A DNA stretch of 64,000 nt from Caldora sp. (GCA_965222765.1 CBDCVG010000043.1:161053-225052), one strand, 5' to 3'. Positions 38,945 to 46,664 are shown, counted from the first letter of the stretch. Notes: generated by a model from the letters alone, not told the origin. Translations and numbers: made by a program.

Positions 38945-39704
38945 ATGGGTAAAAACCAACTCAAACGAAAACTCAAGGAAGGTGAAGTAGTAATTGGTCC
39001 GTTTATGAACTGTGCCTATCCAGCCTTTATCGAAATCTGCGGATATGCTGGATTTGACTTCGCCGTGATTGATTTAGAACATGGTTCTCTGCACACCTTA
39101 GCGGCTGAAGACCTTTGCCGTGCAGCAGATTGCGTAGGATTAGCACCCATCGTCCGAGTCCGCAAAAACGATGGACCACAAATCCAACGTGCTCTTGACA
39201 TTGGTAGTGCAGGGGTTCAAATACCTCAAATTGAAACTATCGAAGAAGCTGAAGCAGCTGTGACGAGTGCCAAATATAATCCCCTGGGTTCCCGTGGTCT
39301 TTCTTTCTATACCCGTGCCGGAGTTTATGGATCAGCTGGCACACAAATCACAAACCAGATGAATGAGGAATCTTTGGTTGTAATTCACATTGAAGGTAAG
39401 CGTGGTGTAGAGAATCTAGAAGAGATTATCAGCGTACCAGATATTGATGTGATTTTTCTGGGCCCTTATGATCTATCCCAGTCCCTAGGTATTCCCGGTT
39501 CAAGTAGGTGATCCTCGTGTCATTGAACAGATGCAGAGGGCAGTAAGTACTATTCGCAATGCAGGGAAAGCCGCAGGCACTTTTGCTGACAATCCAGAAG
39601 TTGCAAAGCGGTGGATTGATGCAGGAGTGCAATATGTGGGATTAGGGGTAGATGTTGGAATTTTTCTGAAGGCATGTCAAGCATTAGTTAAAGCAATACG
39701 GTAA
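38945..39704 (+). pseudogene. HpcH/HpaI-family aldolase interrupted by a +1 frameshift near 39499
   Basis: The upstream frame ends ...LSQSLGIPGSSR*. The continuation in the +1 frame reads QVGDPRVIEQMQRAVSTIRNAGKAAGTFADNPEVAKRWIDAGVQYVGLGVDVG...AIR*. Deleting one T in GGTTCAAG restores a ~253-aa aldolase. Confidence 0.75.
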
Positions 39705-39740
39705 TATCTGAACATCGGAGGAATCAATAATCATTGAACT

Positions 39741-40359
39741 TTATCAAGCTGCGCCATGCTAGGGATTGCCAGATTTAAGTCCTTATAACGGTAAAATTAT
39801 TGGTGATTCCAACTTAATTATTGAATATTTTCAGAAAACTTTAGGAATTGATCTTGATAAACATTTAAGCAAGGAAGAACAAGCCATTTCTCTTGCTTTT
39901 CGGCGGCTAATAGAAGAAAATCTCTACTGGGTTGCTATTTACTATTCTTATGCAATAGAAGAAAACTGGCAAATCTACAAGACAGTTATGGAAAAACTGT
40001 TCAACCAACTACCAGAATCAACACGCTATGAGCTCTTTGAAGAGTTACGCGACCAAATATTAAAGGAATGTTGGGGTCAAGGTATGAGTCGTCATTCTGA
40101 ACAAGAAATTTTTGAAATTGGCGAGCATGACTTGTCGGCTTTGTCTGATTTTTTAGGAGATAAACCATTTTTCATGGGAACAGAACCAAGCACTCTAGAT
40201 GCAGTTGCTTATGGTTTTTTAGCACGCATCATTGGTGATTCTTTGCAAACACCAGTAAAAATATATGCTCTTAAACTTGGGAATATTAAACCATTTTGTG
40301 AACGAGTGAGGTCAAAATTTTACACAGAAGAAGAAACCAAACTGTGGCAAGAAAAGTAG
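39741..40359 (+). pseudogene. GST-like (GST_N_4/GST_C, metaxin-like) gene with an in-frame TAG and an internal N-terminal deletion
   Basis: The frame reads IIELYQAAPC*GLPDLSPY then NGKIIGDSNLIIEYF.... The family consensus LYQF..GLP..SPF...(~35 aa)...NGKIIaDS is interrupted by a stop at 39769..39771, and the thioredoxin-fold core is missing. Confidence 0.5.
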
Positions 40360-40511
40360 GTTAGCTGAAGTAAAGCGACATCCAAGCCAAAACCCTCTGC
40401 TGTTAGGATCTGCTTTGGCTTTTGTTCGAGAGATTTTGAGCCAAAGTTGTGGAAACGCTTCACCCAATCTACAGTTGGATGGGTTGGGCTAGCTCGTCAC
40501 TCCGTTAGTTT

Positions 40512-41459
40512 ATGACCTTTCCTTACCGCCAGCGCCTCTCCCAAATCATTCCAGTTATCATTGGGTTTGTCCTGTTTGCTTTCTCCCTTTGGACAATTAG
40601 TCAAGAACTTCACCAGTACCCTCCTCGCCAAATTCTCGAACACCTTAAAGCAATTCCTCAGCAATCTCTTTTGATTGCAGTAGGTTTAACTCTGCTAAAT
40701 TACATGACGCTTACCGGTTATGACACCTTGGCAGTAAGCCTAGTGCGTCACTCCCTAACTTACCGTCAAACAGCGCTGGTGGCTGCCATCAGCTATGCCA
40801 TTAGCAACAATTTAGGTTTTACCCTGCTCAGTGGTGGTGCCATTCGCTATCGTTTCTACACCCGATGGGGACTTTCCGTAGTCAAGATTGCTCAAATCAT
40901 TGCCTTTTGCAGCCTCAGCTTTTGGATTGGGATATTTACTGTCGGAGGAGTCCTATTTCTAGTTAATCCCCTCATAGTTCCTGACTTACTCCATTTACCT
41001 TTTGATTCTGTTCATTCCTTGGGAGTTCTTTTCTTAGCCTGTATCTTGGGGTATTTAGGGTGGAGTGCAGTTAATACCAAGAAACGACTGCGAATTGGGA
41101 GTTGGGAGTTGCCTCACATTCCCCTTAGACTGGCATTGGCTCAAATTTTAGTGACTGCGGCTGATTGGACACTGGTAGCTGGGATATTGTACCTCCTTCT
41201 CCCTGCATCAATATCCATATCTTACTCTAGTTTTTTGGGTATTTATCTGCTCGCTAAGCTAACAGTAATTATTAGTAATGTTCCTGGTGGGCTTGGAGTT
41301 TTTGAAACCGTAATTCTGTTGCTATTACCGCCTCCTGTTACCTCTATTGATTTACTTGGTACTCTCTTAGCTTATCGCGGTATCTACTATTTTCTACCCT
41401 TAGCGATCGCACTTTTGCTGCTAAGTTTATATGAATCAAAGCAGCGATTTTGGAAATAA
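40512..41459 (+). CDS. UPF0104 / lysylphosphatidylglycerol-synthase-TM-like (flippase-like) integral membrane protein
   Basis: 315 aa with about eight TM helices, matching this family's pattern. Confidence 0.55.
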   Translation: MTFPYRQRLSQIIPVIIGFVLFAFSLWTISQELHQYPPRQILEHLKAIPQQSLLIAVGLTLLNYMTLTGYDTLAVSLVRHSLTYRQTALVAAISYAISNNLGFTLLSGGAIRYRFYTRWGLSVVKIAQIIAFCSLSFWIGIFTVGGVLFLVNPLIVPDLLHLPFDSVHSLGVLFLACILGYLGWSAVNTKKRLRIGSWELPHIPLRLALAQILVTAADWTLVAGILYLLLPASISISYSSFLGIYLLAKLTVIISNVPGGLGVFETVILLLLPPPVTSIDLLGTLLAYRGIYYFLPLAIALLLLSLYESKQRFWK

Positions 41460-44804: not shown

Positions 44805-44944
44805 CATAAGAATCCCCATCCAGAATTTTTAATTGGGATGGGGTGCGTTCAATTAAGATAAATTGCAGGCGATCAAAATTGATCGTCAAGTTCCGAGAGA
44901 ATTAGTTAGGGGAATTGCTCACAGGGTAGCATTACTGCGCGGTT

Positions 44945-45352
44945 GTGGGCTTGGAACCGTACCGCCGTCCTATGCCCAGAAGAAAAAAGACATTTCCGTG
45001 CGGTCATAAGGGGTATGGTCAAACCTGCCACCGTTGTCAGCAAAAAGACAAAGCACGGGAAGAGAAAAAACAGCAAAAACAGGAGTGGGAGTCCACCTTT
45101 GCGGAAGACCCTATCGATTTAACTTGTCTTCCTATCCATGTGGTAGTCAAAGCTCGTGAAATCATTGCTGGCTTGGAAAGTCAGAAAAACTACAGGGAAT
45201 ATAATGGTAAGCGGTTGCGCCACAACCGTTGGATTGTCAGTATTCCAGTTACCAGGAACTACCGAATGCTCTGCCGAGATCAAGGTAGCCTGTTAATACC
45301 CCAAGCGGTTTTGTCTCACGAGGACTATAACGTAGATAAACCAGGGGGTTAG
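44945..45352 (+). CDS. Hypothetical protein with an N-terminal Cys-rich (zinc-ribbon-like) segment and a C-terminal RelE/ParE-like region
   Basis: The N-terminus is CGHKGYGQTCHRCQ and the C-terminus is NRWIVSIPVTRNYRMLCRDQGSLLIPQAVLSHEDYN, resembling the RelE/ParE consensus (yRiRvgdYRiiY...il.vgHR.dvY). Confidence 0.35.
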   Translation: MGLEPYRRPMPRRKKTFPCGHKGYGQTCHRCQQKDKAREEKKQQKQEWESTFAEDPIDLTCLPIHVVVKAREIIAGLESQKNYREYNGKRLRHNRWIVSIPVTRNYRMLCRDQGSLLIPQAVLSHEDYNVDKPGG

Positions 45353-45489
45353 TTATTGGGAATTAGTTATTGGGAATTGGGAATTGGGAATTGAAAATTG
45401 GTTGTTTTACTTTCCCTGTTCCCCTACTCTCTACTCCTCTGCTCCCTGCTCTCTGTTAGAAAGAAAGATAGATCGTCGCCTGAATAACC

Positions 45490-46664
45490 ATGCAAATTTA
45501 TCTCGACTACAGCGCCACAACCCCACCACGTCCAGAAGTAATTACTGCAATGCAAAAGGTACTAACTCAGCAGTGGGGGAATCCCTCCAGCTTGCACGAG
45601 TGGGGTCAGCAATCAGCAATAGTTGGTAGAAAGGGCGAGAATGCAAGTAGCTGGAGTTGATTAATGCATCAGCTGAGTCAGTTATTTTTACCTCTGGTGG
45701 CACTGAGGCGAATAATCTGGCAATCATGGGTATTGCTCACCGCTACAGATTACCTCAGCATTTAATTATTTCTAGTGTTGAACATTCAGCGATCGCTCAA
45801 CCAGTAGAATTGTTGGAACAGTGGGGTTGGGAAGTGACGCGGTTGCCAGTGGATAGCAAGGGACGAGTTAATCCGACTGATCTAGAGGCAGCACTACAGC
45901 CTAATACGGTCTTAGTTTCCATAATCTATGGTCAAAGTGAAGTTGGTACACTGCAACCAATTGATGCCCTTAGTCAAATTGCTCGCGATCGCAGCATCTT
46001 GTTTCATACTGATGCAGTTCAAGTTGCTGGACGCCTACCAATTGATGTGCAACATCTACCCATAGATTTACTTTCTATCTCCAGCCACAAGATTTATGGT
46101 TCCCAAGGAGCAGGGGCTCTATATATCCGTCCCGGTGTAGAATTAGTACCGCTCCTATCTGGTGGGGGTCAGGAATTGGGACTGCGTTCTGGTACCCAGG
46201 CAGTTCCTGCAATTGTTGGTTTTGGTGTAGCAGCAGAACTAGCCGCAACGGAAATGGTAAAAGAGACACCCCGGTTAATTAAATTGCGCGATCGCTTGTT
46301 TGAGCAGTTAGCTGACACCCCTAACTTAAAAGCTACAGGCTCTCGACTGCACCGCTTGCCTCATCACGTTAGTTTCTGTCTTACTAACATTTCTCCTTAC
46401 TCCAAGAAAGTTACTGGTAAAACCTTAGTGCGCCAGCTAAATCTTGCTGGGATTGGCATTAGTGCGGGATCTGCATGTCACAGTGGTAAACTCAGTCCCA
46501 GTCCTATACTGCGGGCAATGGGCTATAGTGACTCAGCTGCTCTGGGAGGTATTCGCCTAACTTTGGGAAGAGATACCACAGAAGCAGATGTGGACTGGAC
46601 AGCAATAGTTGTCAAGCAAATTCTAGAACGGCTGATGCCAGAACCTGTACTATCTCCAGTTTGA
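45490..46664 (+). pseudogene. Cysteine desulfurase (NifS/IscS family) carrying two +1 frameshifts 30 nt apart (~45624 and ~45656)
   Basis: Frame 1 reads MQIYLDYSATTPPRPEVITAMQKVLTQQWGNPSSLHEWGQQSAIVGRKGENASSWS*. Removing one G in GTTGGTAG and one in GGAGTTG gives ...[39 protein letters not shown]..., which then runs uninterrupted to 46664. Confidence 0.8.

What the first reader, a model, noticed from the sequence alone, without database searches (positions are those of the whole stretch)
38945..46664. Cluster of disrupted genes suggests genome erosion or indel-prone assembly
Within ~8 kb there are several broken genes: an HpcH aldolase (+1 frameshift), a GST-like gene (in-frame TAG plus internal deletion), a two-HKD PLD/HhH nuclease (frameshift), tnpB (multiple breaks, lost zinc finger) and NifS (two frameshifts). 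Elsewhere in the window the Hpt gene (an A6 run), an RHH antitoxin (62187-62455) and a ~1.4 kb decayed ORF (51250-52730) are also broken. Most of the breaks are not in long homopolymers. Essential genes (psbA, gatA, argC, thiC, ribBA) are intact. This pattern fits a lineage accumulating pseudogenes, for example a host-restricted or symbiotic Nostocales. Alternatively the assembly is uncorrected.
Basis: partly seen in the sequence, partly recalled or inferred. Interest (0 to 1): 0.6.

Follow-up and report, generated by a model that had tools for sequence, protein, structure and literature searches.

The report
Broken genes: mostly likely assembly errors
The broken genes are really in the sequence, but two are ordinary old pseudogenes and the rest are broken by one-base insertions that look like assembly errors in a marine Symploca cyanobacterium, not genome erosion in a symbiotic Nostocales.

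Summary
The organism is not Nostocales. The window is 92-98.7% identical and colinear with contigs of the Illumina MAG Symploca sp. SIO2C1, where the HpcH aldolase, PLD-HhH nuclease, IscS/NifS-like desulfurase and the 484-aa gene are intact.

Two lesions are real and ordinary:
- The GST-like gene has a lost start, a TAG and a 108-bp deletion, all base-identical in SIO2C1. A third strain, SIO1A3, has a different stop.
- The TnpB-related IS copy has a TAG and an ~80-codon deletion. Its missing zinc finger is a trait of the whole family.

The other breaks are private to the window and are nearly all +1 insertions. Clean single-base indels run 18 insertions to 4 deletions, while multi-base indels are 17:17. 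A pairwise comparison cancels natural mutation bias, so this asymmetry needs a cause specific to one lineage or assembly.

The 484-aa gene carries 7 insertions in 420 nt. With them removed, its protein is as close to five orthologues as the intact SIO2C1 copy, with no stops.

I conclude the single-base insertions are probably consensus errors (confidence 0.65). Real recent strain-specific frameshifts remain possible (about 0.27). Only read mapping or PCR can settle it. Interest is low.

The parts
38945..39707 (+). HpcH/HpaI-family aldolase, split by one extra T at 39499/39500 (GGTC -> GGTTC). Window-private.
   Evidence: Pfam PF03328 hit on the N-terminal piece. The SIO2C1 orthologue is an intact 252 aa. 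The single insertion is mapped. There are 0 substitutions within +/-40 nt. Differences from SIO2C1 are 8 synonymous and 4 non-synonymous codons.
39730..40359 (+). GST-like (GST_N_4/GST_C_6) genuine pseudogene: start ATG->ATC, TGG->TAG at 39760-39762, and a 108-bp in-frame deletion at about 39785.
   Evidence: All three lesions are base-for-base identical in the Illumina MAG SIO2C1. Strain SIO1A3 keeps the full N-terminus but has a different in-frame TAG.
40512..41459 (+). Intact LPG_synthase_TM/UPF0104 membrane protein (315 aa). It serves as an internal control.
   Evidence: Pfam full-length hit. It is 315 aa in SIO2C1 and SIO1A3. Differences from SIO2C1 are 38 synonymous and 11 non-synonymous codons, with no indel.
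41769..43359 (-). Two-domain PLD (Nuc-like) plus ComEA-type helix-hairpin-helix nuclease, split by one extra C at 42683-42685 (+ strand). Window-private.
   Evidence: It is an intact 529 aa in SIO2C1, SIO1A3 and more than 70 other cyanobacteria. Codons 60-462 have no substitution against SIO2C1.
43466..44850 (+). Degraded TnpB-related (IS200/IS605-type) element, absent from SIO2C1 and SIO1A3 at this site. It has a TAG at 44496-44498 and has lost about 80 codons near 43750-43800.
   Evidence: It is 92% identical to the 320-aa homologue P0020 with a single in-frame stop. Longer homologues (P0030, P0035) show the N-terminal deletion.
44972..45352 (+). Intact ParE-like toxin with a DUF7682 zinc-binding N-terminus (126 aa).
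   Evidence: Pfam hits. The protein is identical to the SIO2C1 copy: 4 synonymous and 0 non-synonymous changes.
45490..46664 (+). IscS/NifS-family cysteine desulfurase, broken by two +1 insertions 31 nt apart (about 45624 and 45655). Window-private.
   Evidence: SIO2C1, Caldora SIO3E6, Symploca SIO2E6 and SIO1C2 all lack both bases. The window branch has 20 synonymous and 8 non-synonymous changes, against 12 and 5 on the SIO2C1 branch.
51245..52730 (+). Outside the interval: conserved cyanobacterial Sll1247_C-family protein (484 aa in SIO2C1) with about 7 single-base insertions between 51382 and 51803.
   Evidence: The repaired translation is as conserved as the intact SIO2C1 orthologue, and the old frame has no stop.
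53031..53996 (+). Outside the interval: Hpt-domain protein with A7->A6 at 53829. This changes only the C-terminal tail (322 -> 286 aa).
6915..8454 (-). Outside the interval: M50 peptidase whose last 44 codons are lost through +1 (GG->GGG) at 7047.
   Evidence: It is 512 aa in SIO2C1 against a 470-aa ORF here.
54177..54740 (-). Outside the interval: small hypothetical ORF whose last codons are changed by +1 (CCC->CCCC) at 54239.

Best explanation
The cluster mixes two unrelated things.

(1) Two genuine, unremarkable pseudogenes.
- A GST-like gene was already dead in the common ancestor of this strain and Symploca sp. SIO2C1.
- A TnpB-related insertion-sequence copy is degraded.

(2) One-base insertions private to this assembly. 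They split the HpcH aldolase, the PLD-HhH nuclease and the IscS/NifS-like desulfurase. Outside the interval they affect the Sll1247_C-family gene, the M50 peptidase tail and a small ORF. These are most likely consensus errors of an insertion-prone, probably long-read-based, assembly that left patches poorly corrected.

Shown:
- The lesions exist and are derived on the window side.
- Single-base indels are strongly one-sided.
- The genes carrying them show no decay.

Inferred:
- The cause is technical.
- The assembly used long reads. This rests on two points. The contig runs straight through psbA, where both SIO2C1 contigs end, and through the IS copy without Ns. The extra bases are mostly outside homopolymers.
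For: - **Sister genome intact.** It is 92-98.7% identical with the same gene order, and HpcH (252 aa), PLD (529), NifS (390), the 484-aa gene, Hpt (322) and M50 (512) are all intact.
- **One-sided indels.** Over 42.2 kb aligned to SIO2C1, clean single-base indels are 18 insertions to 4 deletions in the window (29:8 counting messy contexts). Multi-base indels are 17:17. In a two-genome comparison a natural insertion or deletion bias cancels out, because a deletion on one branch looks like an insertion on the other. The asymmetry must therefore be specific to one lineage or assembly. In coding DNA the window is the derived side 13 times out of 14.
- **The 484-aa gene shows no decay.** It has 7 insertions within 420 nt, about 17 per kb, against roughly 1.3-2.4 per kb in intergenic DNA. 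With the insertions removed:
  - the frameshifted segment is 56-63% identical to five orthologues, against 55-61% for the intact SIO2C1 protein;
  - third codon positions carry most of the changes (11/15/30);
  - the old frame has no stop.
- **NifS shows no relaxed selection.** The synonymous to non-synonymous ratio is the same on the window branch (20:8) and the SIO2C1 branch (12:5).
- **HpcH and PLD insertions sit in unchanged sequence.** Each lies in an 80-nt stretch with zero substitutions. PLD codons 60-462 are otherwise identical to SIO2C1.
- **Relatives are clean.** Four other Illumina MAGs on much longer branches have no frameshift in PLD or NifS.
- **The insertions come in tight pairs or patches:** 21077/21101, 45624/45655, 49658/49686 and 51382-51803.
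- **Literature.** Long-read errors that fragment genes are a recognised problem (PMC12007338, abstract). Collapsed mixed-allele consensus can create apparent frameshifts (PMC8445201, title and abstract).
- **The real pseudogenes.** GST lesions are identical in SIO2C1. The tnpB copy has a nonsense codon plus a deletion.
Against: - No reads, coverage or assembly metadata could be seen, so the technical cause is inferred.
- The insertions are not spread evenly. About 30 kb of coding sequence at 1.8-38 kb has only one, in the tail of M50. Single-base insertions are about 5 times denser in intergenic than in coding DNA. That is also what purifying selection on real mutations would produce.
- Essential genes inside the affected stretch are untouched (gatA, and the DUF1995 and UPF0104 genes).
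- The isolated breaks in HpcH, PLD and NifS would look identical if they were very recent real mutations.
- Real pseudogenes (GST, tnpB, and the RHH and NNH1 remnants) exist in the same window.
- Only 1 homopolymer of 6 or more differs from SIO2C1, out of roughly 100 such runs in the whole window, so the pattern does not fit a typical nanopore homopolymer error profile.
- Most intergenic indels could not be polarised with a third genome.
Confidence: 0.65

Rival explanations
1. The single-base insertions are real, recent, strain-specific frameshift mutations in dispensable genes of a free-living Symploca strain. This would be ordinary pseudogene turnover in a large filamentous cyanobacterial genome, perhaps helped by a mutator phase or a small population.
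For: - Indels are depleted in coding DNA and absent from essential genes.
- Three of the coding events only alter C-terminal tails (M50, Hpt, small ORF), as tolerated polymorphisms would.
- The locus already holds real pseudogenes, including independent GST lesions in two lineages.
- The affected genes (accessory aldolase, nuclease, one of several desulfurases) are plausibly dispensable.
- Recent real frameshifts would also show no relaxed-selection signal.
Against: - The insertion to deletion ratio of 18:4 is confined to single-base events. Natural mutation in two sister lineages should be symmetrical.
- Seven insertions and no deletion in 420 nt of a gene show no decay and a density far above intergenic DNA.
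- No window-private nonsense mutation accompanies the 13 or so window-private coding frameshifts.
- About 7 genes are broken on the window branch and none on the SIO2C1 branch.
Confidence: 0.27
2. One reading: genome erosion in a host-restricted or symbiotic cyanobacterium of Nostocales type, with pseudogenes accumulating across the genome.
For: Pseudogene density in 38.9-54.3 kb is locally high. An IS-type element is present.
Against: - The lineage is Symploca (Coleofasciculaceae), not Nostocales.
- About 30 neighbouring accessory genes are intact, including NB-ARC/TPR, EAD8-trypsin, HNH and vault-like genes.
- There is no relaxed selection in the broken genes.
- Only one IS remnant lies in 64 kb.
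- Gene spacing is normal, and the window has accessory genes absent from the SIO2C1 contigs compared, such as the HNH island.
Confidence: 0.03
3. The asymmetry comes from the comparator: the SIO2C1 MAG carries single-base deletions, and some window 'insertions' are the true ancestral state.
For: Most intergenic events could not be polarised.
Against: - In coding DNA the SIO2C1 frame is the open, conserved one.
- Wherever a third genome is available (40389, 42683, 45624, 45655), it agrees with SIO2C1.
- An Illumina/SPAdes assembly is not prone to single-base deletions (general knowledge).
Confidence: 0.05

Closest known systems
Gene-fragmenting indel errors in noisy long-read or mixed-strain consensus assemblies
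   Same: - Single-base indels split otherwise conserved genes.
- They cluster in patches.
- A close relative has intact genes.
- The 'pseudogenes' show no evolutionary decay.
- The contig spans repeats (psbA, IS copy) that break the short-read assembly.
PMC12007338 and PMC8445201 describe the phenomenon.
   Different: - The errors here are almost all insertions and mostly outside homopolymers. That is unlike the usual nanopore homopolymer-deletion profile.
- Most of the window is clean, so any error process is patchy.
- The sequencing technology is unknown to me.
Recent mass pseudogenisation in host-restricted bacteria (for example 'Nostoc azollae' or Sodalis; from general knowledge)
   Same: Several frameshifted genes have few accompanying substitutions. 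An IS-type element lies nearby.
   Different: - Wrong taxon, and no sign of a restricted lifestyle.
- Neighbouring accessory genes are intact.
- Indels are one-sided (+1 only).
- Seven hits fall in one gene that shows no decay.
- There is no IS expansion in 64 kb.
Ordinary bacterial pseudogenes and IS200/IS605-type TnpB remnants
   Same: - The GST-like gene has a lost start, a nonsense codon and a deletion, all shared by an independent assembly.
- The tnpB-related copy has a nonsense codon and an internal deletion.
These are classic multi-lesion decay.
   Different: Nothing notable. The TnpB-related family here lacks the zinc-finger cysteines as a family trait while keeping the RuvC D-E-D residues.

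Membership tests
Assembly or consensus indel artefact | The extra or missing bases are absent from the underlying reads or DNA | not testable with these tools
   No reads or assembly metadata are available. The source contig (228,187 bp, held by NCBI and ENA) is hidden from the look-up of encoding contigs.
Assembly or consensus indel artefact | One-sided error spectrum that natural divergence between two sister lineages cannot give | tested here: met
   Clean single-base indels are 18 insertions to 4 deletions, while multi-base indels are 17:17. Coding events are 13 insertions to 1 deletion, with the window as the derived side.
Assembly or consensus indel artefact | Affected genes show no evolutionary decay once the indels are removed | tested here: met
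   - The repaired segment of the 484-aa gene is 56-63% identical to outgroups, against 55-61% for the intact orthologue. It has no stops, and third-position changes dominate.
- NifS branch ratios are equal.
- There are zero substitutions around the HpcH and PLD sites.
Assembly or consensus indel artefact | Errors hit coding and non-coding DNA, and essential and dispensable genes, alike | tested here: not met
   Insertions are about 5 times denser in intergenic DNA. About 30 kb of coding sequence on the left has only one. Essential genes are spared. This fits only a patchy or context-dependent error process.
Genuine pseudogene | The same lesion is present in an independent assembly or strain | tested here: met
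   Met for the GST-like gene only: ATG->ATC, TAG and the 108-bp deletion are identical in SIO2C1. Not met for HpcH, PLD, NifS, the 484-aa gene or M50, which are intact in every other genome examined.
Genuine pseudogene | Several lesion types (nonsense, deletion, start loss), not only single-base indels | tested here: met
   Met for the GST-like gene and the tnpB-related gene (TAG plus about an 80-codon deletion). The window-private broken genes carry single-base insertions only, and no new stop in the old frame.
Genome erosion in a host-restricted Nostocales | The organism belongs to Nostocales | tested here: not met
   The nearest genomes are Symploca sp. SIO2C1 (92-98.7% nucleotide identity), SIO1A3, and other Symploca and Caldora MAGs. 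Nostocales PLD orthologues are only about 57-62% identical at protein level.
Genome erosion in a host-restricted Nostocales | Relaxed selection and widespread loss of accessory genes | tested here: not met
   Accessory genes across 1.8-38 kb and 54.9-62 kb are full length. There is no excess of replacements on the window branch.
IS200/IS605 TnpB (RNA-guided nuclease) family | RuvC D-E-D catalytic residues and an OrfB_IS605 core | tested here: met
   PF01385 hit. NCBIfam guided_TnpB and TIGR01766 hits on the 92%-identical homologue P0020, with guided_TnpB below its cut-off. D (IDIGIN), E (VFEDL) and D (YNADL) are conserved in the alignment.
IS200/IS605 TnpB (RNA-guided nuclease) family | CxxC...CxxC zinc finger inside the RuvC domain | tested here: not met
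   It is absent from the window copy and from all ten aligned homologues. The absence is a family trait, not decay of this copy.

The most novel reading that the evidence does not exclude
A free-living marine Symploca strain has very recently gained many real +1 frameshifts, up to seven in one conserved gene, through an unusual insertion-biased mutational process or a mutator episode. That would create a burst of young pseudogenes within a species whose other strains are intact.
Probability: 0.2. Interest if true: 0.45.

Novelty: not a real feature. Interest (0 to 1): 0.12.

Why it matters
It matters mainly as a caution. Counted at face value, this window suggests 10-15% pseudogenes and an eroding, perhaps symbiotic, genome. 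Comparison with a sister genome shows that most of the apparent decay is private to one assembly and has the signature of consensus insertions.

Gene, pseudogene and lifestyle inferences from this assembly should wait for read-level checks. The affected genes (aldolase, PLD-HhH nuclease, IscS-like desulfurase, Sll1247_C-family protein) should be treated as probably functional.

Three tests used here need no reads and can be reused on other assemblies:
- the symmetry of insertions and deletions against a sister genome;
- conservation of the repaired reading frame against outgroups;
- the density of lesions in the gene compared with intergenic DNA.

Tried and rejected
- **Finding the source record.** Exact look-ups of window proteins failed or returned only SIO2C1. 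Cluster listings show only that the source is a 228,187-bp contig held by NCBI and ENA, with unnamed proteins.
- **Looking for the frameshifted or intact alleles in JGI metagenome contigs.** Gapped exact patterns at the PLD and NifS sites gave no hits.
- **Testing whether the insertions are merged strain SNPs.** Under this idea both alleles would be kept in the consensus.
  - Insertion sites do lie in more divergent DNA overall (0.09 against 0.05 mismatches per nt, P=0.0005).
  - That is driven by the 49.4-51.8 kb patches.
  - Taking one site per cluster and leaving out the 49.4-51.8 kb patches, local divergence is average.
  - The HpcH and PLD sites lie in stretches with no substitutions.
  - The idea is not supported as a general cause.
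- **Nanopore-type homopolymer error.** Rejected, because only one run of 6 or more differs from SIO2C1.
- **'Lost zinc finger' as decay of tnpB.** Rejected, because it is family-wide.
- **Rfam scan for an IS-associated RNA next to tnpB.** It found only the thiC TPP riboswitch.
- **Literature search for a long-read Symploca assembly.** Nothing could be linked to this contig.

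
Full report
**1. What is in the sequence**

- An HpcH/HpaI aldolase is split into two ORFs, 38894/38945-39511 and 39531-39704.
- A GST_N_4/GST_C_6 ORF lacks the first about 38 positions of its N-terminal domain (39766-40359).
- An LPG_synthase_TM gene is intact.
- A nuclease with two PLDc_2 domains and a helix-hairpin-helix domain is split at about 42.68 kb (minus strand).
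- Three ORF pieces of an OrfB_IS605/TnpB-like gene lie at 43597-44804.
- A ParE-like gene is intact.
- A class-V aminotransferase (IscS/NifS family) is split at about 45.65 kb.

**2. Whose genome it is**

An exact-protein look-up of the neighbouring DUF4079 gene returned contig JAAHGL010000038 of the MAG Symploca sp. SIO2C1, GCA_010692635.1.
- The window from 37,976 to about 62,050 is colinear with that contig at 83-98.7% nucleotide identity, mostly 91-97%.
- Other SIO2C1 contigs cover 554-12,293 and 20,903-38,019.
- A scan of species-representative genomes with the PLD protein puts Symploca and Caldora MAGs next (83-85% protein identity). Nostocales orthologues are at about 57-62%.
- The organism is therefore a marine filamentous Symploca (Coleofasciculaceae), not a Nostocales.
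- Cluster listings show that the window comes from a 228,187-bp contig held by NCBI and ENA. The look-up tool did not return that record, so I could not see its sequencing technology.

**3. Each lesion against the intact relatives**

In SIO2C1 the genes are whole: HpcH 252 aa, PLD 529 aa, NifS 390 aa, ParE-like 126 aa, DUF1995 245 aa and gatA 488 aa.

Base-level alignment gives the following window-private events.

| Site | Gene or region | Event |
|---|---|---|
| 39499/39500 | HpcH | one extra T |
| 40389-40392 | intergenic | one extra A |
| 42683-42685 | PLD | one extra C |
| about 45624 and 45655 | NifS | two extra bases |

- Four other genomes (SIO2C1, Caldora SIO3E6, Symploca SIO2E6, SIO1C2) lack both NifS bases.
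- SIO1A3 and SIO2C1 both lack the PLD base and the base at 40389.

The GST-like gene is a different case.
- The window and SIO2C1 share, base for base, a lost start (ATG->ATC), a TGG->TAG stop at 39760-39762 and a 108-bp in-frame deletion.
- SIO1A3 keeps the full N-terminus but has its own in-frame TAG further on.
- It is a real pseudogene that predates the split of these strains, and it is seen in an Illumina assembly.

The tnpB-related element (43466-44850) is absent from SIO2C1 and SIO1A3 at this site.
- Against a 92%-identical 320-aa homologue it has one in-frame TAG at 44496-44498.
- Against longer homologues it lacks about 80 codons after 'EYRHFLK'.
All ten aligned homologues lack the cysteines but keep the D, E and D of RuvC.

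**4. The rest of the window**

Pfam scans give full-length domain coverage for about 30 genes in 1.8-38 kb and for the genes in 54.9-62 kb.

Comparison with SIO2C1 adds these events.
- A 484-aa conserved hypothetical gene of the Sll1247_C family has 562 homologues of about 450-490 aa. In the window it carries about 7 single-base insertions between 51382 and 51803.
- The Hpt protein has A7->A6 at 53829, which affects only its tail.
- A small ORF has +1 at 54239.
- The M50 peptidase has +1 at 7047, which removes its last 44 codons.
- The RHH remnant at 62187-62455 looks frameshifted, probably by an AC duplication. I had no reference copy for it.

**5. Real decay or consensus error**

Several independent observations point to error for the single-base insertions.

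(a) Direction of the indels.
- Over 42.2 kb aligned to SIO2C1, indels with clean flanks are 18 one-base insertions to 4 one-base deletions in the window. Counting all contexts the ratio is 29:8.
- Multi-base indels are 17:17.
- In a comparison of two sister lineages, any natural insertion or deletion bias cancels. A deletion on one branch looks like an insertion on the other.
- A one-sided excess limited to single bases therefore needs a cause specific to one lineage or one assembly.
- In coding DNA the window is the derived side in 13 of 14 events.

(b) The 484-aa gene.
- Seven insertions and no deletion fall within 420 nt. That is about 17 per kb, several times the density in intergenic DNA.
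- After removing the insertions, the frameshifted segment (codons 46-205) is 56-63% identical to five outgroup orthologues. The intact SIO2C1 protein scores 55-61%.
- Polarised replacements in the N-terminal part (codons 1-205) are 10 on the window branch against 15 on the SIO2C1 branch.
- Substitutions fall mostly on third codon positions (11/15/30).
- The old frame has no stop.
- A gene dead long enough to collect seven natural indels should not look like this.

(c) NifS. The ratio of synonymous to non-synonymous changes is the same on the window branch (20:8) and the SIO2C1 branch (12:5).

(d) HpcH and PLD. Both insertions sit in 80-nt stretches with no substitutions. PLD codons 60-462 are otherwise identical to SIO2C1.

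(e) Lesion type. None of the window-private broken genes carries a window-private nonsense mutation. The two genuine pseudogenes do.

(f) Spacing. The insertions occur in tight pairs and patches: 21077/21101, 45624/45655, 49658/49686 and 51382-51803.

(g) Contiguity. The contig runs through psbA and the IS copy without Ns. Both SIO2C1 contigs end at psbA. This suggests long reads were used.

**6. What speaks against a simple error model**

- The insertions are not uniform. About 30 kb of coding DNA on the left has only the M50 tail event.
- Single-base insertions are about 5 times denser in intergenic than in coding DNA.
- Essential genes inside the affected stretch are untouched.
- That is what selection on real mutations would give, so any error process must be patchy or dependent on sequence context. 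The densest patches lie in the AT-rich 49.4-51.8 kb stretch.
- Only one homopolymer of 6 or more differs from SIO2C1. The profile is therefore not the usual nanopore one. It resembles random-insertion noise (my inference from general knowledge of long-read error modes).
- A 'merged strain SNP' explanation was tested and is not supported for the isolated sites.

**7. Verdict**

- The 'eroding, host-restricted Nostocales' reading is not supported. The taxon is wrong, there is no relaxed selection, the neighbouring accessory genes are intact, and there is only one IS remnant.
- Very recent real strain-specific frameshifts are the main rival (about 0.27).
- The GST-like gene and the tnpB copy are real but ordinary pseudogenes.
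- Gene-fragmenting errors in long-read assemblies, and apparent frameshifts from collapsed consensus, are documented problems (PMC12007338, PMC8445201).
- Read mapping or PCR across the listed sites would settle the matter.

Noticed in passing
window 30680-33322 (-): An 880-aa homologue of the eukaryotic major vault protein, with Vault repeats, Vault_2/3/4 and MVP_shoulder domains, all full length. SIO2C1 has one of the same length in the same position.
   Followed up: partly
window about 27,900-30,650: A low-GC (about 0.31) island of about 2.9 kb between argC and the vault-like gene. It carries a 134-aa HNH endonuclease and a 517-aa protein with a C-terminal HNH domain. It is absent from SIO2C1, where argC is followed directly by the vault-like gene.
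   Followed up: partly
window 43597-44804, with homologues P0020-P0069: A cyanobacterial 'TnpB-related' family in which every aligned member lacks the zinc-finger cysteines but keeps the RuvC D-E-D residues. Many database members are about 320 aa and may be N-terminally cut gene calls. Full-length proteins are probably about 450 aa.
   Followed up: partly
L085 19-756 (Symploca sp. SIO1A3) compared with window 39730-40359: The GST-like gene has been knocked out independently twice within one species cluster. SIO1A3 has a CAG->TAG stop. The window and SIO2C1 share a lost start, a TAG and a 108-bp deletion.
   Followed up: yes
window 39.7-43.5 kb compared with L002 and L085: Relatedness among the three strains is mosaic. 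In the LPG-synthase region SIO2C1 and SIO1A3 are 98.6% identical and the window is the outlier. In the PLD gene the window and SIO2C1 are almost identical and SIO1A3 is the outlier. This implies recombination within the species.
   Followed up: partly
window 58844-58939 (+): A TPP riboswitch (Rfam RF00059, 66 bits) lies directly upstream of thiC (58947-60317).
   Followed up: yes
window 15160-17715 (-): Two adjacent pairs of a small Ras/MglA-like GTPase and a Roadblock/LC7 protein. The two Roadblock ORFs gave identical Pfam scores, which suggests a recent tandem duplication. A protoglobin gene follows at 17800-18381.
   Followed up: no
window 38326, 45381-45402, 9500, 12260: Copy-number differences from SIO2C1 in short tandem 7-nt repeats in intergenic DNA (for example TTAATTC, GGGAATT and AACAAAC units). 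These look like natural repeat slippage. They are balanced between gains and losses.
   Followed up: partly
window 33502-34342 (-): A fragment of a NACHT N-terminal helical domain (NNH1, profile positions 74-175 of 177) plus a 111-aa ORF. SIO2C1 has only a 96-aa gene here. It is probably a remnant of a larger NACHT-type gene.
   Followed up: no
window 62187-63193 (-): An orphan RHH (CopG-like) antitoxin remnant, probably frameshifted by an AC duplication and with no toxin gene after it. Next to it are a DUF4258 gene and a possible MqsA-like antitoxin. SIO2C1 has different genes after the S13 peptidase.
   Followed up: partly
window 44945-45352 (+): A ParE-like toxin domain fused to a small zinc-binding DUF7682 N-terminus, with no obvious partner antitoxin. 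It lies directly beside the tnpB insertion site. The protein is identical in SIO2C1.
   Followed up: no
window 1799-3169 (+): A DUF4041/T5orf172 (GIY-YIG-like) protein whose 90%-identity cluster has only this one member. The SIO2C1 alignment stops at 1706, so this looks like strain-specific mobile or defence DNA.
   Followed up: no
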